Of a stretch of 64,000 nt of DNA, positions 1-64,000 are shown piece after piece (within the stretch, counting starts at the first letter, position 1; each line of letters starts with the position of its first letter). Made by a program: the position numbers and the translations under genes. This stretch comes from an uncultured Brevinematales bacterium (GTDB taxonomy: Bacteria; Spirochaetota; Brevinematia; Brevinematales; CAYRWR01): contig CAZIAD010000001.1 of the NCBI GenBank assembly GCA_964537555.1, positions 5,732 to 69,731 of the forward strand, written 5' to 3'. Under the pieces are notes generated by a model. That model ran no database searches. It saw only the letters and a list, made by a program, of their open reading frames with translations, and had not been told where the DNA came from.

Positions 1-72
1 CTTTACCGCTGAGGACGCAAAGGGCGCTGAGTTTGTGGGGCCAGATTCAGGCCTGAGTTGGATTTCTTCGCC

Positions 73-106
73 GACTTTCGACTTTCAACTTTTGACTTTT
101 GACTTA
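73..106. repeat. short tandem repeat (GACTTTY)x5
   Basis: gactttc gactttc aactttt gactttt gactta at the window edge, 3' of the hydrolase gene. Confidence 0.5.
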
Positions 107-186
107 TTCTGCCCGGTGCCTCGGTCTTGGCCGGAAGGTACCAGATGACGGAGAGGCCTGTGATATAGGAGGGATTCAACTATCTC

Positions 187-1584
187 TTACTTCTTTTTAC
201 TGAATAAACACCTGTCTACTTTTAAAAATACATTCTCCTCATTTTCAAAGAACAATATTGTTTCTTTATCAGAAAAATTATATGTGTAGAAGTTCATGCA
301 TTCACTATCATTGTTTTCCGGAAATATAGGGAAATCAAAAGGGTTTTCTTCCCTTAAAATTTTCACAGAAAGATAACCCGACTTATCACTGACTTCAAAT
401 TGATATATATCTTTGTAAGTGGAGTATTTTCCTGTTAATTTTTTCCAGTGTTTTTCCTTTTTATAGGCATAATTATTTTTCATGGGATCCACTCCAAGGT
501 ATGCCTGTAGTAGAGCTGTAGTGTGCCTAAAATAGGGAGAGGAAGAAGCATTGGAAAGAAGAATGACACCTGCCTCTAATTCCGGCAACAAAATAATTTG
601 AGTTGTGTAATTTGCGGTAGCTCCCCCGTGCCTGACAACTTTTTTTCCGTGAAAATCTGACAATAAAACCCAACCCAGGCCATATCCCTCACTCTTTGCC
701 TCTGGCATTGATAAAGCAAAATCATCTGAATAACTGTGTTTAGCAGTAAGATCATCCCAAGATTTCTTATTTTGTAATAAACTTTTATCCTGAGTCATCA
801 CTGCCTGAACATATTTCGCCAGATCCGGTATATTGCTTGTGATACCACCTGCCGCATAAAGATTGTTATCTATAGTTCTCTGGATAGCTAATATTGCTTT
901 AGCCTTGTTTACATAGCCTTTGGCTAATTCCGGGTTTTCCAGAAAATCCTTTTCATCTATGAAACTGGAATTCTTCATTTCCAAAGGAGTAAAAATATTT
1001 TGTGTGATATAGTCTTTATATTTCATTCCGGACAAGTCCTCAATGATAAATCCTAATAGATCATACCCTCCATTAAAATAGAAAAATTGCTCCCCGGGTG
1101 CAAACTGTACCTCATCTTGTGCGTTATTTATAAATCGCATAATGTCATCTCTACTGCTCATTGGGATGATGGGAATGTCTTTTTCGTCATCAGTAAAATA
1201 ATTGATTTTTACTGCTGTATCCAGGGCAGGAATTCCACTGGAATGACTGAGGAGGTGTTTTATAGTGATGGGTTTATCTTTATCACCAAGGGTAAAATCA
1301 AGATGTCTGGAAACAGGGTCATTGATATCCAGCAGGCCTTTCTCTGATAACTGAAGTATAGCGATAGCTGTGAATGCCTTGGTACACGATCCAATTCCGA
1401 ATACACTGTTTATAGTTATCGGTTCATTGGTACTCCTGTCTTTTGTGCCAAAACATGCTTCATATTTGATTTCACCTTTTTCTATTAGAGCCACAACTGT
1501 TCCGGGTATTCTACTCGTTGCCATATTATCCGCGATTTTATCTTCAAAAATGGGTATAAATTTCTGCAATTCTGTCTGATTCAT
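187..1584 (-). CDS. serine hydrolase of the beta-lactamase/penicillin-binding-protein (class C-like) family
   Basis: 465-aa ORF; SxxK active-site motif (GSCTKAF) near the N-terminus, fold-level resemblance to AmpC/esterase family VIII. Confidence 0.75.
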   Translation of the reverse strand: MNQTELQKFIPIFEDKIADNMATSRIPGTVVALIEKGEIKYEACFGTKDRSTNEPITINSVFGIGSCTKAFTAIAILQLSEKGLLDINDPVSRHLDFTLGDKDKPITIKHLLSHSSGIPALDTAVKINYFTDDEKDIPIIPMSSRDDIMRFINNAQDEVQFAPGEQFFYFNGGYDLLGFIIEDLSGMKYKDYITQNIFTPLEMKNSSFIDEKDFLENPELAKGYVNKAKAILAIQRTIDNNLYAAGGITSNIPDLAKYVQAVMTQDKSLLQNKKSWDDLTAKHSYSDDFALSMPEAKSEGYGLGWVLLSDFHGKKVVRHGGATANYTTQIILLPELEAGVILLSNASSSPYFRHTTALLQAYLGVDPMKNNYAYKKEKHWKKLTGKYSTYKDIYQFEVSDKSGYLSVKILREENPFDFPIFPENNDSECMNFYTYNFSDKETILFFENEENVFLKVDRCLFSKKK

Positions 1585-1770
1585 AGATATCTCCTTCTAG
1601 TGAAAGTAAATTCTTTATATTTTATTTCATAAAACTCATTTTCCATGTAATAGATGCCGCTTTATGCACCTCCATTAAAGATAACAGATAGGGTGACAGT
1701 GATTGTTCCTTATCCATTTCTTCAAATCTAATCACCGAGAGGCCTGTGTTGTATTATGGGCATTTATTAT

Positions 1771-2508
1771 TCACTTTATCATTTTTCCAAAATAGATATA
1801 AGAACTTAGGCTATAGAAGTACTCTTCCTTCTCATCTAGATCTTTCATTTCCTTAATGATCTTCAGATGGTCTTCGGACCCTATGACCCCTTTTTCCACA
1901 AGGGCATTAAGGTCCATCATTCGGTCGAATCCGTACGAGCCTTCTTCAAATCTGGTTTCAATGAGGTTGAAGATCTCGGGCTGACCCTGAAATCTGCCTG
2001 AACTTTGGAAGAATCCCCACAGCTTACGGCCCATCATTCCGTCACAGGCATCCATCCAGCCTTGTTCCCAGTCTGCAAATCTGTGCACAAAGTCCCGGAT
2101 CAAATCCTTGTTTTCTGAATTCCAGACCTGTGTGTCCCAATCCCAGTGGGCAAACAGAACCCGGCCTCCCGGTTTAAGAATACGGCACAATTCTTCCAGC
2201 AGCACTGTCTTGTCAGGGATACACTCCAGTACATCTACAGAAAGGATAACATCGAAGCTGTTGTCCGGGAAATCAAAGGCATCAACAAATTTTTGGACTT
2301 TGAAGTCTATACCGGGAAAATGCTCAGAGGCATAATCCTGTGATTCAGGCAGAGAATTCGTTCCGATCAGGATGCTGTTGGGTGAAACATGTTTCTTTAC
2401 TTCTCCCAGGAGCTGGCCATTACCGCAGCCAAAGTCGAGGATGCTATAATCCATATCCTTATCCAGGTTCAAAAGTTCGATTATTCTTTGGCTGAGATGA
2501 TGTTTCAT
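1771..2508 (-). CDS. class I SAM-dependent methyltransferase
   Basis: 245-aa ORF with glycine-rich SAM motif I (LDFGCGNGQLL) followed by acidic motif II region. Confidence 0.75.
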   Translation of the reverse strand: MKHHLSQRIIELLNLDKDMDYSILDFGCGNGQLLGEVKKHVSPNSILIGTNSLPESQDYASEHFPGIDFKVQKFVDAFDFPDNSFDVILSVDVLECIPDKTVLLEELCRILKPGGRVLFAHWDWDTQVWNSENKDLIRDFVHRFADWEQGWMDACDGMMGRKLWGFFQSSGRFQGQPEIFNLIETRFEEGSYGFDRMMDLNALVEKGVIGSEDHLKIIKEMKDLDEKEEYFYSLSSYIYFGKMIK

Positions 2509-2645
2509 CTGACACTCCCTGAAGGCCTAAAAAGTATTAGCCTCTCTTTTTTATCTATTAAGACCAGATCCAACCAGCCTGGCAAATGAAGTGAGGACAT
2601 TGCGCGGCAATAGTAGCGTCTGTGTCCTGCATTGAATTTGCTCAA

Positions 2646-3203
2646 TCACATTTTAAAATCTTTTTTAATGATTGAATACATTTTATAATTATGAAAAGTA
2701 CCATTATTATCAGGAGCATAATGTCTTAAGTTCCCTTCATACTTCATTTCTACTTTTTCTAATACTTTTTCAGAAGCAGTATTACTCTCATTAACAGTTG
2801 CCTGGACCCTTTCAAATCCTACATCGATTAAAAGAAATCTTATGATTTCTTTCAGTGCTTCTGTCATTATACTTTTATTCCAATATTTTTTTGAAATGCA
2901 ATAGCCTATCTCACATCTTTTATCTCTATCAGAACAATCTATTACTCCCACTGAGCCTATAACCTGATTATCCTCTTTATATTTTATTGCCCATTGATAC
3001 GACTCGGCATTGTCATATTCTTTGACCCAGGTATTTATTACACTCTTAGTTAGCTCAATATTTTCATGCGCCTTCCAGGTTAAGTATTTTGCTACCTCAT
3101 CATCGGAGGCCCAATTATTGAACATATTTTCAGAATCTTCTACTTTGAATTTTCTCAATATTAATCTCTTCGTCTCAATTTCTTTTGTTCCTAAATGATT
3201 CAT
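2646..3203 (-). CDS. GNAT family N-acetyltransferase (RimJ/RimL-like)
   Basis: 185-aa ORF; N-terminal 'ETKRLILRKF...YLTW' pattern typical of RimL-type GNATs. Confidence 0.7.
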   Translation of the reverse strand: MNHLGTKEIETKRLILRKFKVEDSENMFNNWASDDEVAKYLTWKAHENIELTKSVINTWVKEYDNAESYQWAIKYKEDNQVIGSVGVIDCSDRDKRCEIGYCISKKYWNKSIMTEALKEIIRFLLIDVGFERVQATVNESNTASEKVLEKVEMKYEGNLRHYAPDNNGTFHNYKMYSIIKKDFKM

Positions 3204-3245
3204 AAATTACTCTCTCATTTAATATTCCGCTACGGAACAGTCAAA

Positions 3246-3776
3246 CTATTTAACTCTAGCGTAAACTTTACAATCTCGCGGAATCAAGGAGATATTAGGA
3301 TGTATTATCCATTTTCTCAAGGTCCCTTCAAGTTCCATACCCAGTTTTTTCATGACACGTCCTGATGCAGGGTTATCTATATCGTGAACTGCCCAAATTC
3401 TCTGGATCTCAGGAATATTATATATCCAATTAAATACAGGGATTAATGCTTCAGTCATCAAACCTTTGTTCCAGTATTTTTTTGCTAATGCGTATCCAAA
3501 ATCAGCTTTAAATCCGTCTACTCTAAAATCAAGCATGCCAATGATCTCTTCTGCTTCTTTTAAATGAATCACAAAAGGAAATGCTTTACCAGTATCCCAG
3601 CTAGCAATTGCCATTTTAAGAAACTCTTGAATGGTTGATATTTTTTCATGTGGAGTCCAGGTGAGATATTTTACAACATCTGAGTCCTGGGCATAGTTCT
3701 TAAATATATCTTTCGCATCATTAAGGTCCGGTTTTCTTAAAATCAGTCGCTCAGTTTCAAATATCATATTTCTCAC
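3246..3776 (-). CDS. GNAT family N-acetyltransferase (paralog of upstream gene)
   Basis: 176-aa ORF; 'ETERLILRKP...YLTWTPH' plus conserved 'KKYWNKG(L/I)MTEAL' motif shared with 2646..3203. Confidence 0.7.
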   Translation of the reverse strand: MRNMIFETERLILRKPDLNDAKDIFKNYAQDSDVVKYLTWTPHEKISTIQEFLKMAIASWDTGKAFPFVIHLKEAEEIIGMLDFRVDGFKADFGYALAKKYWNKGLMTEALIPVFNWIYNIPEIQRIWAVHDIDNPASGRVMKKLGMELEGTLRKWIIHPNISLIPRDCKVYARVK

Positions 3777-3898
3777 CTGTATCAGGAATAATTTATCTTA
3801 TTCTAACTATCCTCTCCAAAATAATCCAGCATCCCGGCGTTACAGCGCCTTAAGGCCGACTCCTGTCCTGAGTTTATCAGATGTAAACAAATAAAAAC

Positions 3899-3927
3899 TT
3901 GACACACTAACGAACGTTAGCTATTAT
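3899..3927 (+). promoter_or_regulatory. sigma70-like promoter (TTGACA-17-TATTAT) with embedded palindromic operator CTAACGAACGTTAG (3907..3920) upstream of the TetR gene
   Basis: -35 TTGACA 3899-3904, -10 TATTAT 3922-3927, inverted repeat ctaacg-aa-cgttag between them; SD aaagggg before ATG 3956. Confidence 0.55.
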
Positions 3928-28848: not shown

Positions 28849-28956
28849 GCATGAGTGAAGAGGTGTTTTGGAGGGTTGTATGAAAAATTGTTGTTGTCCA
28901 ATTTAATAGATAAGAGACAAGGGGGCTGAAAACGGTTAGATACATACCAGTTTTAT

Positions 28957-29289
28957 TTAAATGAGTGTTTGAAGGTCTTTAATTAGGACAGGAATATTAT
29001 TGATAATAGTATCCCATACTATGTCATCACTTAGGGCATCATATCCATGAATGATAACATTTCTAAAACCAATAATTTCTTTCCAGGAATTCACAGAAAT
29101 CAGGATTTCTTCATTCATTTTAAATACTCTATTGAAAGCTTCGCCGATTATCTCAAATTGTCTTTCTACAGCAGATTGTGTTTTTAAATCATTTCGATAT
29201 TCTTCAAAACTCATATTTAAAGTAAATTCCTTTATTAAAAGAGCTGCATTTAGAGCATCTTCCAGGCAGACTTTTGGGTCATGCAGCAT
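28957..29289 (-). CDS. hepT: HepT-like (DUF86) toxin RNase of a HepT/MntA toxin-antitoxin pair
   Basis: 110 aa; Rx4HxY motif 'FRNVIIHGY'. Confidence 0.8.
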   Translation of the reverse strand: MLHDPKVCLEDALNAALLIKEFTLNMSFEEYRNDLKTQSAVERQFEIIGEAFNRVFKMNEEILISVNSWKEIIGFRNVIIHGYDALSDDIVWDTIINNIPVLIKDLQTLI

Positions 29290-29575
29290 AAAGTTCTCTG
29301 GTTTTATTATAAATATTTTGTTTCAGTCGTGCGTTTTTAATGGCATCTGGCATAAGAAGATCAACCGGTCTTTTCAGAATTAATTCCAGCTCACTTTTTA
29401 ATGCCATATATCTATGTAGACCATTAGTTGAATGGGATAATTCCAGTAGAAAATCCACATCGCTATTCTTTTGAAATTCTTTAGTTAATGCACTGCCGAA
29501 TAGAGTCAGTTTTTTTACTTCATACTTTTCGCACAGTGATTTAATTCTGTCCAGATAGGGTTCGATTTTCAACAT
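29279..29575 (-). CDS. mntA: MntA-like minimal nucleotidyltransferase antitoxin
   Basis: 98 aa; 'FGSALTKEFQKNSDVDFLLE' GSx(n)DxD nucleotidyltransferase motif; 11-nt overlap with hepT. Confidence 0.8.
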   Translation of the reverse strand: MLKIEPYLDRIKSLCEKYEVKKLTLFGSALTKEFQKNSDVDFLLELSHSTNGLHRYMALKSELELILKRPVDLLMPDAIKNARLKQNIYNKTRELYAA

Positions 29576-29632
29576 TCATTATTCCTTGATTAATGATACA
29601 GGATAATGAAATGGAGGTCAAGATTCTACTAA

Positions 29633-30478
29633 TTAATTATCCTGTGTCCTGGCCAGGCTGATGTGATCCTCTTCTATGACAATCAGGCGTTGTTTGTACA
29701 GCACCCCGATCGCTTTTTTAAAGGCCTTTTTACTGACCCCGAAGGCCCGGGAGATATCGTCAGGATCGCTCTTGTCCGACAGGGGGAGAGTGCCGCCCCG
29801 CTCCCGGAGACGTTCCAGGATGACCTGGGACAGGTCCTTGACCTGGCCGAAGCCCTGCTTCTGCAGAGCCAGGTCGATCTTTCCGTCCTCCCGGATATTC
29901 TTGATATAGCCGGTGAGACGATCTCCCACCTGGACCTTTTTGAAGATGTCGTTATAAAAGATGACCCCGGAGTGGGTGTTATTGATGATGGCCTTGTAGC
30001 CCAGGTCGGTAGCATAGGCGATCATGAGGTCCACCTCCTGGCCTACTTCATAGTCTCCCCCTGTTTTTTCCAGCTCAAAATCGATCTTGGAGCTGGCGGC
30101 CAGGCGGTCGCTCACTTCATCGTGGTAGATAAATACGACATAGTACTTTCCCACCTGCATTTTCTCTTTCTGCTCCTTGAAGGGCACAAAGAGATCCTGG
30201 GGCAGGCCCCAGTCCAGAAAGGCTCCTATTTCAGTAGCGGCCTTACACTGCAGGCAGGCAAATTCTCCTACCTGACCCTTGGGCATGTGTGGTGTGGCTA
30301 CCAGGCGCTCCAGGGGGTCCAGGTAGATAAAGACATCGATCTCATCACCCTCGCTTAGAGGCTTTTCCAGGAAGACCCGGGGTATAAGGACCTCACCCAG
30401 CTCACCGGCATCCACAAAGGGGCCGAAGTCAGTGACCTTGATGACGGGTAGTACCTGGCTCTTGCCCAGCTGTGCCAT
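29633..30478 (-). CDS. cvfB: CvfB/YitL-like S1-domain RNA-binding protein
   Basis: ORF 29633..30514; likely start at MAQLGK; tandem S1-like segments and C-terminal winged-helix-like region. Confidence 0.6.
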   Translation of the reverse strand: MAQLGKSQVLPVIKVTDFGPFVDAGELGEVLIPRVFLEKPLSEGDEIDVFIYLDPLERLVATPHMPKGQVGEFACLQCKAATEIGAFLDWGLPQDLFVPFKEQKEKMQVGKYYVVFIYHDEVSDRLAASSKIDFELEKTGGDYEVGQEVDLMIAYATDLGYKAIINNTHSGVIFYNDIFKKVQVGDRLTGYIKNIREDGKIDLALQKQGFGQVKDLSQVILERLRERGGTLPLSDKSDPDDISRAFGVSKKAFKKAIGVLYKQRLIVIEEDHISLARTQDN

Positions 30479-59472: not shown

Positions 59473-59734
59473 TTGTACCCCCCGATACGGAATGGGGGTA
59501 TGCACCATAACCCCCATATAACATTACTAATAAAATATGTTAATGCTTAAGAAATATTATGTCAAGAAACGAATGTGTTTACAGATAATTACCGGTGCCC
59601 ATGTCATTATTATAGATAAAGATGTCATCTAATTTCTTAGTTTTGATGAGGCCAATTCTACTGAAAAGGGGCTCCATGTTTTGATTTTAATTATAGGCTA
59701 ATTTACAATTAACCCTGAACAGAAGGAGAAAATA

Positions 59735-60982
59735 ATGTCACACAAAGAGTATATAGAGAAAATCGCCCAACAGGCCCGCAAAGTGTCCTACCAGGTGGCC
59801 TCCAAAAGCACCCGGGAAAAGAATGCGGCCCTAGAGGCCATAGCAGGACAGATCAGTGCTGCCAGGCAGGCCATACAGAAGGAAAATGCCAAAGATATAG
59901 AGTATGCCCGTAATAATAATATCAGTGAAGCGGTAATAGACCGGCTCTTACTCACTGATGCCCGTATCGACACTATGGTACAGGCTATCCGGGATATTAT
60001 TCAGCTGGACGACCCGGTGGGATCAGGAGACCTGATTCGCACCCTGCCTAACGGCCTCCAGCTCAACAAGATAAAAGTACCCCTGGGGGTGGTGGCCATG
60101 ATCTATGAGTCCCGCCCTAACGTGACCAGCGATGCCGCCAGCCTCACCCTCAAATCAGGAAATACCGTGATCCTCCGGGGGGGCAAGGAATCACTTCACT
60201 CCAATAAGATCATTGCTGACCTGATACGTAAAGGCCTGGAATCGGTAGCTTTTCCTGTGGACGCGGTGCAGTTTATCGATCAGACGGACAGGGAAATAGT
60301 AGACGAGATGCTCAGGCTGAACCAGTACATCGATGTCGTCATACCCCGGGGTGGTGAGGGCCTGATCCGGGCTGTGTCTGAAAAGTCCAGTATCCCTGTG
60401 ATTAAACACGATAAAGGGGTGTGCCATGTATTTGTCGATGCCAGCGCAGACCGGGCCAAAGCTGAAGCCATAGCGGTCAATGCCAAAGTACAGAGGCCCA
60501 GCGTGTGTAATGCCGCCGAGACCCTGCTTATCCATAAAGACTATCCTTATAAAAAAGAGATTATTGCCGCCCTGCTTAAGGAAAACGTGGAAGTGCGGGC
60601 TGATAAAGCCCTGCGCCATGTAGTAAATGGCCTGCCTGCCGCTACCGAAGAGGACTGGACTACCGAGTACCTCGACCTCATCATCTCTGCCAAAGAAGTA
60701 GAGTCAGTACAGGCAGCAGTGGACCATATAAATACCTACGGCTCCCATCATTCTGACGCCATAGTCAGTGAGCATTATGGCTCTACTCAGCTCTTTTTAC
60801 AGCAGGTAGACTCCGCTGCAGTGTACGCCAATGCCTCCACCCGCTTCACCGACGGGAGTGAGTTCGGGCTGGGAGCGGAGATCGGCATCTCCACCCAGAA
60901 GCTGCATGTCCGGGGCCCCATGGGGCTGGAGGGGCTGTGTTCCGAGAAGTGGGTGATCTACGGCCAGGGGCAGGTCCGCTGA
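59735..60982 (+). CDS. proA: glutamate-5-semialdehyde dehydrogenase (gamma-glutamyl phosphate reductase)
   Basis: 415 aa; ALDH-superfamily; catalytic Cys in 'RPSVCNAAETLL'. Confidence 0.9.
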   Translation: MSHKEYIEKIAQQARKVSYQVASKSTREKNAALEAIAGQISAARQAIQKENAKDIEYARNNNISEAVIDRLLLTDARIDTMVQAIRDIIQLDDPVGSGDLIRTLPNGLQLNKIKVPLGVVAMIYESRPNVTSDAASLTLKSGNTVILRGGKESLHSNKIIADLIRKGLESVAFPVDAVQFIDQTDREIVDEMLRLNQYIDVVIPRGGEGLIRAVSEKSSIPVIKHDKGVCHVFVDASADRAKAEAIAVNAKVQRPSVCNAAETLLIHKDYPYKKEIIAALLKENVEVRADKALRHVVNGLPAATEEDWTTEYLDLIISAKEVESVQAAVDHINTYGSHHSDAIVSEHYGSTQLFLQQVDSAAVYANASTRFTDGSEFGLGAEIGISTQKLHVRGPMGLEGLCSEKWVIYGQGQVR

Positions 60983-61034
60983 TAGAACAGGGGCATCCTG
61001 AGTATATACCTTATACTGTACCGCCCTACCGGGG

Positions 61035-61071
61035 CTCTTTCCCTGTCGGTGGGCGACAGGGCAGGGGCTGG
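61035..61071 (+). repeat. GC-rich hairpin-forming repeat A (ctctttccctgtcggtgggcgacagggcaggggctgg)
   Basis: near-identical copy at 61503-61539; related to the tail of the palindromic element at 7905-7925 / 8921-8970. Confidence 0.6.
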
Positions 61072-61404
61072 CATAAGGTGCCTATGCCGGAGACAACCGG
61101 AGGGCTTTCCGCTTTCTTTTCGGGAAGAAAAGAAAGCTTGGCAAAGAAAATTCCTTTTTTGGCTGGTGGAACTATAGGGCATCACCCCGCGAATTGGTGG
61201 CTGATAGATTAGCAGACAATGTGCCGGGCGGGCTGAATGTCCTGGCGGAGAGGCGCAGACTAGGGTATTTCAGCCCTTAGTAGCGTAGGGTGGGGTGCAC
61301 ATTGAGGAGCGGGACAGCCCCCTTCGGCGGGGAATTGGAGCCTGGTTTAGTTGAAGTTTTTTAGTCGGTTTGAGGGTTAGGGCTCGGACTTAAAAGATTT
61401 GTCC

Positions 61405-61450
61405 ACTATAGACTATAAGCTAATGACTAGTGACTCATTTTGACTCTACC
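61405..61450. repeat. island-associated imperfect palindrome R1 (ccactatagactataagctaatgactagtgactcattttgactc)
   Basis: shares 'ccactatag' and 'gagtcat/gactcat' blocks with R2/R3. Confidence 0.4.
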
Positions 61451-61502
61451 TGTTACTGTCTTCCTGAGTCTCTACCCTTTACTTTACCCCACTATCGAAG
61501 GA

Positions 61503-61539
61503 TTTTTCCCTGTCGTTGGGAGACCTGGCAGGGGGCTGA
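61503..61539 (+). repeat. GC-rich hairpin-forming repeat B (tttttccctgtcgttgggagacctggcagggggctga)
   Basis: 29/34 identity with repeat A, direct orientation, 468 bp apart. Confidence 0.6.
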
Positions 61540-61569
61540 TGGTAAACAGTAGTTAGGTGCAATTCAGCA

Positions 61570-62427
61570 TTGATAAAAGTAGGAGCAATTATTATAAAAT
61601 ATCACTCTTTCTTACTGATAATAGTCTTATTTCTAACATCTTGTAGTCCTCGTATACTAGAAAGAAAAGAAATTCCAAGTCCTAGAGATGGAATAAAGAG
61701 AGAATCTATACAGTATGTAAGTCAAGGCATATCTGTTCGAGGGTATATACTTCAACCTGAATCCGATACTAAAAGTCTACCTGTAATTATTTATATTCGT
61801 GGTGGACATTCAAAATTGGGATTTATATCTGAAGAGTTTTTTGATTATCTTGCATTCATATCTAGTCTAGGATATGCAGTATTTATAAATGAACAACGTG
61901 GAGCTACTTTTACAGATGGAAAAGATGAATATGGTGGCAAAGAAATAAATGATGTGAAAGCACTTATTCGTATTGCTCTCAAAGAAAAAAATATTGATAA
62001 GAATAAAATATATATGTGGGGTAATTCTAGGGGTGGAATGATGGCATATCTCTTCCAGAAATATCAGCTACCAATAAAGGCAATGGCAGTAACCGGAGGA
62101 ATCTCTGATTTGTCTTTTTCATATAGCAATCGTGAAAAGAGTTTCCAAGATGTGCTTGATGATGCAATCGGTGGACCTCCTGCAAAATACCCTAAAGATT
62201 ATCAGTCTCGATCAGCAGTATGTTGGCCAGAAAAGTTTCACATTCCAGTAATTATTATACATGGAGAAGATGACTGGAGAGTTCCTGTTTCTCAGGTTTC
62301 AAATTTGGTTACAAAATTAGAGAACCTCAGCAAAGAGTTCGAGGTTCATATTCTACCTGACCAACCACATTTTACAGATACAAATATTTCAATTCCTTTA
62401 ATTAAAGGTTGGTTTGAGAAATATTAG
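61570..62427 (+). CDS. alpha/beta-hydrolase lipoprotein (S9 peptidase/dienelactone-hydrolase-like) in AT-rich island
   Basis: 285 aa; lipobox LTSCS; GxSxG 'WGNSRGGMMA'; 'IIHGEDDWRVP'; GC about 33%. Confidence 0.7.
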   Translation: MIKVGAIIIKYHSFLLIIVLFLTSCSPRILERKEIPSPRDGIKRESIQYVSQGISVRGYILQPESDTKSLPVIIYIRGGHSKLGFISEEFFDYLAFISSLGYAVFINEQRGATFTDGKDEYGGKEINDVKALIRIALKEKNIDKNKIYMWGNSRGGMMAYLFQKYQLPIKAMAVTGGISDLSFSYSNREKSFQDVLDDAIGGPPAKYPKDYQSRSAVCWPEKFHIPVIIIHGEDDWRVPVSQVSNLVTKLENLSKEFEVHILPDQPHFTDTNISIPLIKGWFEKY

Positions 62428-62475
62428 GTTTTTGAAATTAGAATAATATGATATTAAAATATAACACAGTACCTA

Positions 62476-62520
62476 ACTAGGACTCTGCAGCCACTATAGC
62501 GGCGCTGAGTCATGTACGTT
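62476..62520. repeat. island-associated GC-rich imperfect palindrome R2 (aactaggactctgcagccactatagcggcgctgagtcatgtacg)
   Basis: dyad gactctgc...gctgagtc; about 80% identical to R3; between genes. Confidence 0.6.
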
Positions 62521-62549
62521 ATCTACCATTTAAATAGGAAGAGAAAAAT

Positions 62550-63044
62550 ATGGATAGAATTTTTGAATTAGTTTCTAAAGCTTATACAACTAATGAGTTA
62601 GATGCACTAGTAAATGGTCAAAAAAACTATGGTTTACAAACACCTTATATGTGTCCTGTAAAAGAACTTCCAACAGACTGGCAAAAATTATTAATAGAAG
62701 GGATTTATCCCTTCTATATGAATAGTGATAAGCAGATAAAAAATAAAATGGAAAAAATGTTACTCAGCAATATGGATTCAATATTGGGATTGTATTGCAC
62801 AATAAATTTGTTTTTCAGACAAATAATGAATGAGTCTTTTGGCAATTCCCCATTCATAATGGATAAAGAAGCTATCATACATGATATACCAATAAAAATA
62901 AAAATGTTTAAAAGTGACTTGAAAAAAGATTTTCGATGGATGGGCGAGCATTTAGCCCAAGGACTTTATGATGAAATTCAAAGGATGATTTCAATTCTTA
63001 ATACTGATTTTAAAGTTAAATTAAGTAATACGCTAGATAACTAG
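62550..63044 (+). CDS. hypothetical protein (helical, no recognisable motif) in AT-rich island
   Basis: 164 aa; GC about 28%; SD ggaagag before ATG. Confidence 0.6.
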   Translation: MDRIFELVSKAYTTNELDALVNGQKNYGLQTPYMCPVKELPTDWQKLLIEGIYPFYMNSDKQIKNKMEKMLLSNMDSILGLYCTINLFFRQIMNESFGNSPFIMDKEAIIHDIPIKIKMFKSDLKKDFRWMGEHLAQGLYDEIQRMISILNTDFKVKLSNTLDN

Positions 63045-63085
63045 GACTCCGCCGCCACTAGCCCAGTGCAGAGTCATTTCATCAT
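63043..63085. repeat. island-associated GC-rich imperfect palindrome R3 (aactaggactccgccgccactagcccagtgcagagtcatttcat)
   Basis: dyad gactccgc...gcagagtc; overlaps the TAG stop of 62550..63044. Confidence 0.6.
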
Positions 63086-63114
63086 ACACCTTAAAAAAAC
63101 AGAGAGGACACCTT

Positions 63115-63741
63115 ATGAAAAAAACACTCTTCAGCACCCTTTGTCTTTTGACCCTCTTATCCTGTCAGACACAGTCTGAGCCTAAAAAGGATTACCTTAA
63201 TGCCTATAAGACAAAAAATTACATTTGGTATAAGAATAAGATCTTGAGTAAAAAAATTTATCTGGGAGAGCATCTGGATACTGTGCTCCCAAAAGTCAAA
63301 GATAAAGACTTAGAGGTCAAACTTCAGGATAATATGCCTGAAGTGAAATACTTCGTAAGCAGTACCAGACTGTTTGGATATGACAGCGATGCATTATTCA
63401 GGTTTGGTTTTGACTATCTGGTATATGTAAAATATATGATAGTAGTACATGATGAGGCATATAATTCTGTCTACTCTAAAATAGAGCGTATTTTGAGCAA
63501 AAAATACGGCCCTTACAGATTAGATGCTTCCCATGAAAAACAATGGGTCATAGCTGAAACCTATTCTGTCACTTTAGGTAAATTTATCCATACTGGTAAT
63601 GAGCCCTATGATGCCATTACAGTTACCTACCGAGAGCACCGTGTCACTTCCAAAATCATTGAAAGGGCGAGGCAGGATCTGGAAAAAAAGGAAGAAATCG
63701 ACACCGTTCTGGATCTGGCCTATAATCCTCATAATCAATAA
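63115..63741 (+). CDS. lipoprotein of unknown function in AT-rich island
   Basis: 208 aa; signal peptide + lipobox LLSCQ; SD gagagga. Confidence 0.6.
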   Translation: MKKTLFSTLCLLTLLSCQTQSEPKKDYLNAYKTKNYIWYKNKILSKKIYLGEHLDTVLPKVKDKDLEVKLQDNMPEVKYFVSSTRLFGYDSDALFRFGFDYLVYVKYMIVVHDEAYNSVYSKIERILSKKYGPYRLDASHEKQWVIAETYSVTLGKFIHTGNEPYDAITVTYREHRVTSKIIERARQDLEKKEEIDTVLDLAYNPHNQ

Positions 63742-63753
63742 GGATCTTTAAAA

Positions 63754-64000
63754 ATGGAAAGACTACATATCAGGAAAATCGGAAAAGAAAACATCAAGCT
63801 TCATATCCAGTGTCGCATGACATATTGCCTCAGGGACTCTAAAGATGTGGCTCAAAAAGAGTATGAAGCCTTTTTTAAGGATGTAGAGGAATGGACCCTG
63901 GAGCAGCTGAAATCAGATTCCTATTATACCTATGCGGGTTATTTAGGTGATGAATTAATTTGCTTTGCCGGGGTTCTGATATATGAGCTGCCTCCCATTC
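63754..64000 (+). CDS. GNAT-family acetyltransferase-like, 5' part (runs off window)
   Basis: MERLHIRKIGKENI... 'YAGYLGDELICFAGVLIYE'; GC returns to about 45%. Confidence 0.45.
   Translation, partial: MERLHIRKIGKENIKLHIQCRMTYCLRDSKDVAQKEYEAFFKDVEEWTLEQLKSDSYYTYAGYLGDELICFAGVLIYELPPI

What the first reader, a model, noticed from the sequence alone, without database searches (positions are those of the whole stretch)
61560..63753. AT-rich three-gene array punctuated by GC-rich imperfect palindromes at gene junctions (cassette-like, probably horizontally acquired)
Three same-strand genes sit between proA and a GNAT gene: a lipoprotein alpha/beta hydrolase, a 164-aa helical protein of unknown function and a 208-aa lipoprotein. 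They are at 28-38% GC versus about 48% elsewhere. Related about 45-bp GC-rich elements with dyad symmetry (gactcYgc-N15-gcWgagtc; R1 61405-61450, R2 62476-62520, R3 63043-63085) sit just upstream of each gene; R3 overlaps the preceding stop codon. The layout resembles integron gene cassettes (ORF + recombination site) or polymorphic-toxin immunity-gene arrays. R2 carries an RYYYAAC-like inverse core (acctaac), but neither element has a proper GTTRRRY core, and no integrase is in the window.
Basis: partly seen in the sequence, partly recalled or inferred. Interest (0 to 1): 0.65.

Follow-up and report, generated by a model that had tools for sequence, protein, structure and literature searches.

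The report
Relic integron gene cassettes beside proA
The AT-rich genes after proA are integron-type gene cassettes separated by attC recombination hairpins, a known kind of gene-capture array, here partly decayed, with no integrase in view, in a probable Brevinematales spirochaete.

Summary
Two of the three reported palindromes are real and related: R2 (62471-62524) and R3 (63035-63087). R1 is not a member. The same element occurs 24 times, always co-oriented with the local AT-rich gene array, in 54 kb of a related Brevinematales MAG. There it shows full attC anatomy: RYYYAAC, an asymmetric unpaired spacer, an imperfect hairpin with a conserved bulge, then GTTRRRY. Compensatory changes support the fold. 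R2 keeps ACCTAAC and GTTATCT. R3 has lost its GTT. A canonical GTTAGGT half-site (61552-61558) marks the left edge of the array, exactly where GC falls from about 47% to 35%. No tyrosine recombinase lies in the window, so this is a CALIN (attC cluster lacking an integrase), or the start of a longer array cut by the window end. Cassette 1 encodes an S9/alpha-beta hydrolase lipoprotein. Cassette 2 encodes an orphan IFS-family NADase immunity protein. Cassette 3 encodes an ORFan lipoprotein plus a truncated ORF. A second, more decayed array lies at 1-3805 on the minus strand. One of its cassettes is shared with the MAG, and the homology starts right after the upstream attC. Verdict: the integron-cassette reading is supported. 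This is a new member of a known kind, of modest interest.

The parts
61552..61558 (+). GTTAGGT half-site (canonical GTTRRRY). It marks the left boundary of the cassette array, with the inferred crossover between G61552 and T61553.
   Evidence: Read directly from the sequence. GC drops from about 0.44-0.50 to about 0.32 within the next 100 nt. Two other array starts show the same RTA|GTTA junction: L005 and window 3799-3805 on the minus strand.
61553..62518 (+). Cassette 1 (966 nt): hydrolase ORF plus attC R2.
   Evidence: Boundaries inferred from the GTT positions of the half-site and of R2.
61570..62427 (+). ORF of 285 aa with a TTG start: a predicted lipoprotein (lipobox LTSC) of the alpha/beta-hydrolase / Peptidase_S9 type.
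   Evidence: Pfam Peptidase_S9 E 6e-22 and BD-FAE E 1e-15. GC 0.337, GC3 0.196. It is the sole member of its 90% cluster.
62471..62524 (+). attC site R2 (54 nt): ACCTAAC-TAG-GACTC.GC.GCC-loop-GGCGC.GAGTC-ATGTAC-GTTATCT. It is the best preserved site in the window.
   Evidence: Covariance model 71.6 bits, E 2e-19. Alignment A1. The bottom-strand fold gives the L-stem with a mismatch and a bulge.
62519..63081 (+). Cassette 2 (563 nt): IFS-like ORF plus attC R3.
   Evidence: Boundaries inferred from the GTT of R2 and the aligned (mutated) position in R3.
62550..63044 (+). ORF of 164 aa: an orphan homologue of IFS, the immunity factor for the SPN NAD+ glycohydrolase toxin.
   Evidence: Pfam PF16718, 31.8 bits against a cutoff of 30, E 1.9e-7. 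PDB 3QB2/3PNT 'Immunity factor for SPN', E 1.4e-3. No other word-sharing relative among 5.8e9 clusters.
63035..63087 (+). attC site R3 (53 nt), decayed: the R'' box is AGATAAC, the inner stem is weakened, and the R' core GTT is replaced by ATC. The TAG stop of the IFS gene lies in its R''-L'' spacer.
   Evidence: Covariance model 58.9 bits, E 2e-15, with non-pairing positions marked. Alignment A1.
63082..64000 (+). Cassette 3, open-ended at the window end: a 208-aa ORFan lipoprotein (63115-63741, lipobox LLSC) and a truncated ORF (63754-63999). No attC lies between them.
   Evidence: ORFs. No attC hit after 63092. The 208-aa protein has no relative in 1.84e9 representatives and no Pfam or NCBIfam match. 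The truncated ORF has no family match and no entry in the protein database.
2579..2634 (-). Decayed attC of the same family, in a second AT-rich cassette array (1-3805, minus strand).
   Evidence: Covariance model 46.6 bits, E 1e-11. It has lost the R boxes but keeps one compensatory change in the L stem (GGACA/TGTCC). It abuts the methyltransferase (MTase) cassette shared with the MAG.
60996..61540 (+). Context, not part of the cassettes: an ~80-nt direct repeat (60996-61075 and 61462-61540, about 80% identical). It duplicates the proA-downstream hairpin region and brackets 390 nt of GC-rich non-coding DNA. The second copy ends 12 nt before the GTTAGGT boundary.
   Evidence: No Rfam match. 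Fold z-score -1.65. Origin unexplained.

Best explanation
The region is a short array of integron-type gene cassettes: at least three cassettes and two recognisable attC sites. It sits downstream of proA in the chromosome of a probable Brevinematales-lineage spirochaete. No integron integrase is in view, so it is a CALIN, or the proximal end of a longer array cut by the window or contig end.

Each cassette is an ORF followed by a ~54-nt attC. In integrons, the folded bottom strand of attC is bound by the tyrosine recombinase IntI and cut between the G and TT of the GTTRRRY core. Cassettes are excised by attC x attC recombination. They are inserted by attC x attI recombination or, less specifically, at genomic GWT 'attG' sites.

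Here the array starts at a bare G|TTAGGT junction with no attI or intI beside it. That fits insertion at a secondary genomic site, or separation from a parent integron by rearrangement. R2 still looks recombination-competent. R3 has lost its cleavage core, so cassettes 2 and 3 are probably fused and immobile. The array is therefore decaying.

Shown: the site family, its covarying structure, its orientation rule, the composition break, the cassette contents, and the sharing of one cassette of the window's other array (1-3805) between genomes. Inferred: IntI as the recombinase, the insertion route, the host taxon, and the current immobility.
For: (1) The family is real. R2 and R3 are unique to this spot among the 64 kb, apart from one decayed copy at 2579-2634. 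An exact-pattern scan of 185,579 species genomes found 10 copies on 6 contigs of one Brevinematales MAG. The covariance model finds 24 copies in 54 kb of that MAG, and all are co-oriented with their local array. It finds only one marginal hit (15 bits, E 0.69) in 637 kb of unrelated proA loci.

(2) The anatomy is that of attC: RYYYAAC in 12 of 19 copies and AAC in 18 of 20; then TAG; then a 5-bp L stem, a mismatch, 2 bp, one bulged base, 3-5 bp and a loop; then a 5-6 nt spacer; then GTT in 17 of 20. Total length is 53-54 nt. MAG bottom strands fold into an R stem, an asymmetric 6/3-nt internal loop, an L stem and a single bulge on the R''/L'' side.

(3) Covariation: 84% of cells are paired, against 26-36% when partners are slid. 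Seven pairs show double changes, for example GACTC/GAGTC to GGCAC/GTGCC. None of 500 shuffles reaches the observed score.

(4) Array properties. The ORFs are co-oriented and AT-rich (GC 0.23-0.37 in the MAG, 0.29-0.37 here), each with an attC just 3' of it. Spacing is 0.16-3.5 kb, mostly 0.4-2.5 kb. MAG arrays are at least 12 kb and at least 9 kb long.

(5) Mobility signature. The methyltransferase (MTase) cassette (window 1771-2508) is 82% identical in protein to a MAG cassette. The homology starts just after the R' core of the upstream attC in both genomes. The upstream attCs and the neighbouring cassettes differ.

(6) A GTTAGGT half-site lies exactly at the GC break.

(7) The contents are typical of cassettes: a singleton ORFan, lipoproteins and an immunity protein.

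(8) Literature. CALIN is defined as at least 2 attC sites without a nearby intI. Spirochaetes carry chromosomal integrons with lineage-specific attCs (PMC4889954, PMC8352920). IntI inserts cassettes at genomic GWT sites (bioRxiv 10.1101/2022.09.11.507474).
Against: No IntI or any tyrosine recombinase was found in the 64-kb window or in the 54 kb of MAG sequence held, so the recombinase is inferred. IntegronFinder's attC model could not be run. My family-specific model does not detect class 1 attCs. At 53-54 nt the sites are at or below the usual lower size limit, and the unpaired spacer is unusually asymmetric (3 vs 5-6 nt). Single-site fold z-scores are modest (-1.3 to -2.1). Only two sites lie in the reported region, and one is defective. 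Presence or absence of the array in sister strains could not be tested, because no close relative of this locus was retrievable. None of the three genes of this array was itself seen in another context.
Confidence: 0.8

Rival explanations
1. An integron-like but non-integron gene-capture array, such as the rAID-1 systems of Bacteroidales. A different tyrosine recombinase (XerD-like) would stockpile low-GC orphan immunity genes separated by repeats.
For: The array is low in GC and co-directional, and one gene is an IFS-family immunity protein. No IntI was seen, so the recombinase is unknown. rAID-1 is described as having intergenic repeats 'reminiscent of integrons' (bioRxiv 10.1101/471110).
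Against: The rAID-1 criteria require a 5' XerD-like recombinase gene. Here proA and 570 nt of non-coding DNA lie upstream, and there is no recombinase in 61.5 kb. The sites carry the integron-specific AAC...GTT inverse cores and a bulged hairpin. Only 1 of 3 proteins is immunity-like. The closest relative is a spirochaete MAG, not a member of the Bacteroidales.
Confidence: 0.07
2. An ordinary horizontally acquired AT-rich islet whose GC-rich palindromes are terminators or REP-like intergenic repeats, unrelated to site-specific recombination.
For: The sites are GC-rich hairpins at gene 3' ends. Individual fold energies are only 1.3-2 sd better than shuffles.
Against: There is no T-tract, and the terminator scan does not call them. 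There are zero copies in 57.7 kb of native-GC sequence and none in 637 kb of control loci. Conserved flanking AAC/GTT boxes lie outside the hairpin, orientation is strict, and cassette-level homology breakpoints fall at the sites.
Confidence: 0.07
3. A polymorphic-toxin locus remnant: an array of immunity genes left behind next to a lost or off-window toxin gene.
For: An IFS-family protein is present without a neighbouring NADase toxin. The proteins are small and rapidly evolving.
Against: I saw no toxin gene beside the array. Immediately upstream are proA, a DUF4842 lipoprotein gene and pgi, and most of the rest of the window was not annotated by family search. The first gene is a hydrolase lipoprotein and the third is an ORFan lipoprotein with no immunity-family match. 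The junction repeats are explained by attC anatomy rather than by toxin C-terminal/immunity modular repeats.
Confidence: 0.04

Closest known systems
CALIN (cluster of attC sites lacking an integron integrase), as defined by IntegronFinder (Cury et al. 2016, PMC4889954)
   Same: There are at least 2 attC sites within 4 kb on one strand (564 nt apart) and no intI nearby. The cassettes are mostly of unknown function and not resistance genes. The cluster is small, as in most CALINs.
   Different: The window ends 0.9 kb after the last site, so the array may be longer. One site is defective. The left edge is a bare GTTAGGT half-site rather than an attC.
Sedentary chromosomal integrons of Spirochaetes, e.g. 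Treponema denticola (from my own knowledge), and the 'Spirochaetes-type' attC class (Ghaly et al. 2021, PMC8352920)
   Same: The phylum is the same (inferred). The attC sequence family is homogeneous and lineage-specific, and the related MAG carries long AT-rich arrays (at least 12 kb).
   Different: No integrase is seen here. The order appears to be Brevinematales, and a full-text search found no paper that mentions it together with integrons. I could not compare these attCs with the published Spirochaetes model.
Cassette insertion at genomic attG / secondary sites (Loot et al., bioRxiv 10.1101/2022.09.11.507474)
   Same: The array begins at a G|TT junction in otherwise native intergenic DNA, with no attI or intI. 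This is the product expected from attC x GWT recombination.
   Different: The event is not observed, only its presumed product. The empty site in a relative could not be retrieved.
rAID-1 recombinase-associated orphan-immunity arrays of Bacteroidales (Ross et al. 2019, bioRxiv 10.1101/471110)
   Same: It is a low-GC, co-directional array with intergenic repeats, and it contains an orphan interbacterial-immunity gene.
   Different: There is no 5' XerD-like recombinase, the phylum differs, the repeats are attC-type, and most genes are not immunity genes.

Membership tests
Integron gene cassette / attC site | Inverse core sites: R'' RYYYAAC at the 5' end and R' GTTRRRY at the 3' end, complementary to each other | tested here: met
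   In alignment A1, AAC is present in 18 of 20 copies, the full RYYYAAC in 12 of 19, GTT in 17 of 20 and GTTA in 14 of 20. The R-box helix is 74% paired, with 4 pairs covarying. R2 has ACCTAAC / GTTATCT. R3 has AGATAAC / ATCATAC, so its R' is lost.
Integron gene cassette / attC site | Imperfect hairpin of the folded bottom strand, with an unpaired central spacer between the R and L boxes and extrahelical base(s) on the R''/L'' arm | tested here: met
   Predicted DNA folds of MAG bottom strands show an R stem, a 6/3-nt internal loop, an L stem, a mismatch and one bulged base. The L-stem helix is 92% paired, with 3 covarying pairs, and the bulge column is conserved. This is prediction, not experiment.
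Integron gene cassette / attC site | The site lies at the 3' end of a co-oriented, usually single ORF, and the units are arranged in tandem arrays | tested here: met
   Window: ORF-R2-ORF-R3-ORF. MAG: 24 of 24 sites share the strand of their array, with spacing 0.16-3.5 kb.
Integron gene cassette / attC site | Recognition by the general attC covariance model of IntegronFinder | not testable with these tools
   That model is not available here, and Rfam holds no attC family (no relevant hit). As a surrogate, my family-specific model R1 gave no significant hit on the class 1 integron locus L011. That result is uninformative, because attCs share structure rather than sequence.
Integron gene cassette / attC site | Cassette mobility: the same cassette in different contexts, with breakpoints at the attC core | tested here: met
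   This is met for the methyltransferase (MTase) cassette of the window's other array compared with MAG L003. It is not shown for the three genes of the reported array, which are singletons.
Complete integron | An intI gene (tyrosine recombinase with the IntI-specific insertion) next to an attI at the 5' end of the array | tested here: not met
   Upstream of the array are 570 nt of non-coding DNA and proA. tblastn with IntI1 gave no hit at E<0.1 in the window or the MAG loci. A regex for the tyrosine-recombinase motif was negative. Ten large MAG ORFs gave no Phage_integrase match. The rest of either genome could not be examined.
CALIN | At least 2 attC sites clustered within 4 kb and no intI nearby | tested here: met
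   R2 and R3 are 564 nt apart. There is no intI in the 61.5 kb upstream. The downstream side beyond 64000 was not seen.
rAID-1 (Ross et al. 2019) | [quoted passage not shown] | tested here: not met
   The gene and GC criterion is met, but no recombinase lies 5' of the array. The criteria are taken from bioRxiv 10.1101/471110.
Intrinsic terminator | A GC-rich stem-loop followed by a T-tract | tested here: not met
   R2 and R3 are followed by ATGTACGTTATC and ATTTCATCATAC, and the scan does not list them.
REP/BIME-type dispersed palindromes | Many copies in intergenic regions throughout the chromosome, in either orientation | tested here: not met
   There are no copies in the 57.7 kb of native-GC window sequence. 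In the MAG all copies lie in AT-rich arrays, in one orientation per array.
IFS (PF16718), immunity factor for the SPN NADase (the 164-aa protein) | A Pfam score above the gathering threshold and similarity to solved IFS structures | tested here: met
   31.8 bits against a cutoff of 30, E 1.9e-7, covering profile positions 48-136 of 164. 3QB2_A E 1.4e-3 over residues 7-147. The margin is narrow. Function was not tested, and I saw no NADase toxin gene in the window (not searched for systematically).

The most novel reading that the evidence does not exclude
The lineage may carry an active, undescribed Brevinematales chromosomal integron that uses unusually short (~54 nt) attC sites with a 3/6-nt asymmetric spacer. 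On this reading it seeds small cassette clusters at ordinary genomic GTT sites (here next to proA and next to a tetR gene). It would also stockpile orphan interbacterial-immunity genes such as IFS, making it an integron-based counterpart of the Bacteroidales rAID defence arrays.
Probability: 0.3. Interest if true: 0.5.

Novelty: new member of a known kind. Interest (0 to 1): 0.33.

Why it matters
It adds a probable Brevinematales lineage to the bacteria known to carry integron cassettes. It also supplies a compact, well-defined attC family (a 20-copy alignment with covariation) that could improve attC models for non-proteobacterial phyla. It gives a natural example of what the attG/secondary-site insertion model predicts: a cassette cluster starting at a bare G|TT junction in housekeeping DNA, now decaying. 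An orphan NADase-immunity gene carried as a cassette hints that integrons, like rAID systems, may bank interbacterial immunity genes. None of this changes current understanding. It is a clean annotation result rather than a discovery.

Tried and rejected
R1 as a third site: rejected.

Rfam scan of 60800-64000 at E<=10: only noise.

Extending beyond the window failed. Exact-product look-ups of the 208-aa, 164-aa and 285-aa proteins found nothing. proA is found only on a 1.5-kb Logan contig. The source is a 176,144-nt NCBI contig that could not be fetched. The truncated last ORF is not in the protein database, so the window end may be the contig end.

The attC pattern gave 0 hits in JGI metagenomes and in IMG/VR.

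Sister-locus comparison failed. The best metagenomic proA relatives are only 47-55% identical, so they were used only as a negative control for the model.

Search for intI: regex, IntI1 tblastn, and Pfam on 10 large MAG ORFs were all negative.

A conserved attI-like sequence at array starts: only a short RTA|GTTA motif is shared, with no significant similarity.

The 390-nt GC-rich spacer as a structured RNA or intI pseudogene: no Rfam hit, fold z-score -1.65, no IntI1 tblastn hit.

Function of the 208-aa protein: no homologues at all. Single-sequence AlphaFold gave pLDDT 31, which is unusable, so no fold search was run.

Cross-detection of class 1 attCs by model R1: negative and uninformative.
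Full report
**The observation**

The three co-oriented ORFs exist at 61570-62427, 62550-63044 and 63115-63741. They are compositionally foreign. Their GC is 0.337, 0.285 and 0.373, and their GC3 is 0.20-0.40. The other ORFs of the window have mean GC 0.47 (sd 0.05) and mean GC3 0.54 (profile).

Two of the three reported palindromes are real. R2 and R3 are 75% identical over 52 nt. The dyad pattern occurs twice in the window and never in 100 shuffles. R1 is not a member: it has no motif match, no fold, and no covariance-model hit even with filters off. R3 does contain the TAG stop of the 164-aa ORF.

**What the elements are**

I scanned one genome from each of 185,579 species for GGACTCNGCNGCCACTA-N6-14-GAGTC. 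This gave 10 copies on six contigs of a single MAG, an uncultured Brevinematales bacterium (CAYRWR01), plus one likely chance hit.

The window is not that MAG. They share one gene at about 80% DNA identity. The host assignment is therefore an inference from the shared site family and that shared gene.

The MAG copies reveal the whole element:
- YCTAAC, then TAG
- GACTC, one mismatch, GC, one bulged base, GCC, an 8-nt loop, GGC, GC, one mismatch, GAGTC
- 5-6 nt of spacer, then GTTAKNN

This is the layout of an integron attC: R'' (RYYYAAC), unpaired spacer, L'', variable loop, L', spacer, R' (GTTRRRY). The length is 53-54 nt.

On a 20-copy alignment the structure is 84% paired, against 26-36% when the partners are slid. 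Seven pairs show changes on both sides, for example GACTC/GAGTC to GGCAC/GTGCC. None of 500 shuffles reaches the observed covariation score.

Bottom strands of MAG sites fold into an R stem, a 6/3-nt internal loop, an L stem and a single bulge on the R''/L'' arm. From my own knowledge of attC biology, that is where the extrahelical bases lie that direct bottom-strand choice.

A covariance model built from the alignment gave these results:
- Three copies in the window: R2 at 71.6 bits, R3 at 58.9 bits, and a decayed one at 2579-2634 on the minus strand at 46.6 bits.
- 24 copies in 54 kb of the MAG, seven of them not in the training set, and every one on the strand of its local array.
- Only one marginal hit (15 bits, E 0.69) in 637 kb of unrelated proA loci.

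The sites are not terminators (no T-tract). They are not dispersed REP-like repeats either, since none lies in the 57.7 kb of native-GC window sequence.

**Array properties**

In the MAG the sites sit immediately 3' of co-oriented ORFs with GC 0.23-0.37, spaced 0.16-3.5 kb apart. Adjacent 8-kb chunks join across open reading frames, which gives arrays of at least 12 kb and at least 9 kb.

In the window the layout is:
- a GTTAGGT half-site (61552-61558), exactly at the GC break
- cassette 1 (61553-62518), with attC R2 (ACCTAAC...GTTATCT)
- cassette 2 (62519-63081), with attC R3, whose R' core is ATC instead of GTT and whose inner stem is weakened
- cassette 3, running to the window end, with two ORFs and no further site

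**Mobility**

The window holds a second AT-rich array on the minus strand (1-3805). It contains a beta-lactamase-fold gene, a SAM methyltransferase (MTase) gene and two GNAT genes.

Its methyltransferase is 82% identical to a MAG cassette that is flanked by attCs. In both genomes the homology begins a few bases after the R' core of the upstream attC. The upstream attCs and the neighbouring genes differ. The window's downstream attC is reduced to a remnant.

This is the footprint of cassette exchange at attC cores, followed in the window genome by decay.

**Integrase**

None was found. IntI1 was taken from a class 1 integron retrieved for this purpose. It gave no tblastn hit in the window or the MAG loci. 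A tyrosine-recombinase motif search and Pfam on ten large MAG ORFs were also negative.

Upstream of the array lie proA and 570 nt of non-coding DNA. The structure therefore meets the published definition of a CALIN, not of a complete integron (PMC4889954).

A bare G|TT junction at the head of the array is what IntI-mediated insertion at a genomic GWT (attG) site would leave (bioRxiv 10.1101/2022.09.11.507474). Separation from a parent integron by rearrangement is the alternative. Two other array starts show the same RTA|GTTA junction, but there is no extended conserved attI-like sequence.

**Contents**

- Cassette 1 encodes a predicted lipoprotein of the Peptidase_S9 / alpha-beta hydrolase type.
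- Cassette 2 encodes a member of Pfam IFS, the immunity factor for the streptococcal NADase SPN. The score is 31.8 bits against a cutoff of 30, and PDB 3QB2 matches at E 1.4e-3. I saw no toxin gene beside the array, so it is an orphan immunity gene.
- Cassette 3 encodes a lipoprotein with no detectable relative among 1.84 billion representative proteins. Its single-sequence structure model was unusable. A truncated ORF follows, and its GNAT label could not be confirmed.

ORFans and secreted proteins are typical cassette cargo.

**Comparison and rivals**

The rAID-1 arrays of Bacteroidales are functionally similar: low GC, orphan immunity genes and integron-like repeats. They are defined by a 5' XerD-like recombinase, which is absent here, and the sites here are attC-type.

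The polymorphic-toxin reading accounts for one gene only. The terminator and REP readings fail their defining tests.

**What remains open**

- Whether the array continues past position 64000. The source contig could not be fetched.
- Whether the genome encodes IntI.
- Whether relatives have an empty site. No close relative was retrievable.
- The origin of the 80-nt direct repeat that brackets 390 nt of GC-rich DNA just upstream.

**Verdict**

The feature is a new member of a known kind: a CALIN or relic cassette array with a lineage-specific short attC family in a probable Brevinematales genome. Interest is modest.

Noticed in passing
window 1-3805 (minus strand): A second AT-rich cassette-like array. 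It holds a beta-lactamase-fold/Pab87 protein (187-1584), a SAM methyltransferase (1771-2508) and two Acetyltransf_3 GNATs (2646-3203, 3246-3776). One decayed attC lies at 2579-2634, and a GTTAGAA half-site (3799-3805, minus strand) sits next to a native tetR gene. The array runs off the window start.
   Followed up: partly
window 1700-1760 and 140-170 (minus strand): A shared motif, CACAGGCCTCTC, lies about 20 nt downstream of the stops of the methyltransferase and beta-lactamase-fold genes. At the methyltransferase it aligns with an internally deleted attC (AAC...ATTTGAA) when compared with the intact MAG site. It is probably a second, decayed junction element.
   Followed up: partly
window 60996-61075 and 61462-61540: An ~80-nt direct repeat (about 80% identical) duplicates the proA-downstream hairpin region (CCCTGTCG-N5-CGACAGGG). 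It brackets 390 nt of GC-rich (0.55-0.60) non-coding DNA with positive GC skew. There is no Rfam hit and no significant fold. The second copy ends 12 nt before the cassette boundary. Origin unexplained.
   Followed up: partly
L001 (Logan SRR13617046 contig) = window 59605-61078: The only public contig with an exact proA match ends at 61078, just after the first copy of the direct repeat. This could reflect low coverage or strain heterogeneity at that point.
   Followed up: no
L003 7089-7517, L008 4445-4666: The MAG arrays contain very short inter-attC units (366 nt and 156 nt). These are near-empty cassettes or tandem attCs. They include a divergent attC subtype (CTGGCAGCCAGTCGCC...GGCGGCGCCGAGCGCC) that has the same R boxes.
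   Followed up: no
MAG L010 3756-3817, L004 227-288, L010 2077-2139, L003 7455-7517; window 2579-2590: Several cassettes begin with the same extension after the GTT core (TTATATGCCAGGC...). The window's methyltransferase cassette does too (TTCATTTGCCAGGC). This may be a conserved cassette 5' leader, or a sign of recent common origin.
   Followed up: no
window 28950-29580 (minus strand): A low-GC (about 0.31) small-gene module lies between native genes, with a hairpin (CAGGATAAT...ATTATCCTG) at 29596-29646. That hairpin scored weakly with the attC model (11 bits, E 1.1), so it is probably unrelated. Protein families were not checked.
   Followed up: no
window 3907-3920: A perfect palindrome, CTAACGAACGTTAG, lies 36 nt upstream of the tetR start. 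It is probably the TetR operator. Its resemblance to paired attC R boxes (CTAAC/GTTAG) is probably coincidental.
   Followed up: no
L011 (class 1 integron, plasmid NZ_CP096354) vs alignment A1: The classical aadA-type attC shares the 9-mer TCGCGGCGC with the core of this family. The family model does not detect it as a whole, however.
   Followed up: partly
L002 1134-2036: An AraC/GyrI-like regulator beside a MAG array gives a sub-threshold match to Pfam Cass2, 'integron-associated effector binding protein' (25.9 bits against a cutoff of 27).
   Followed up: no
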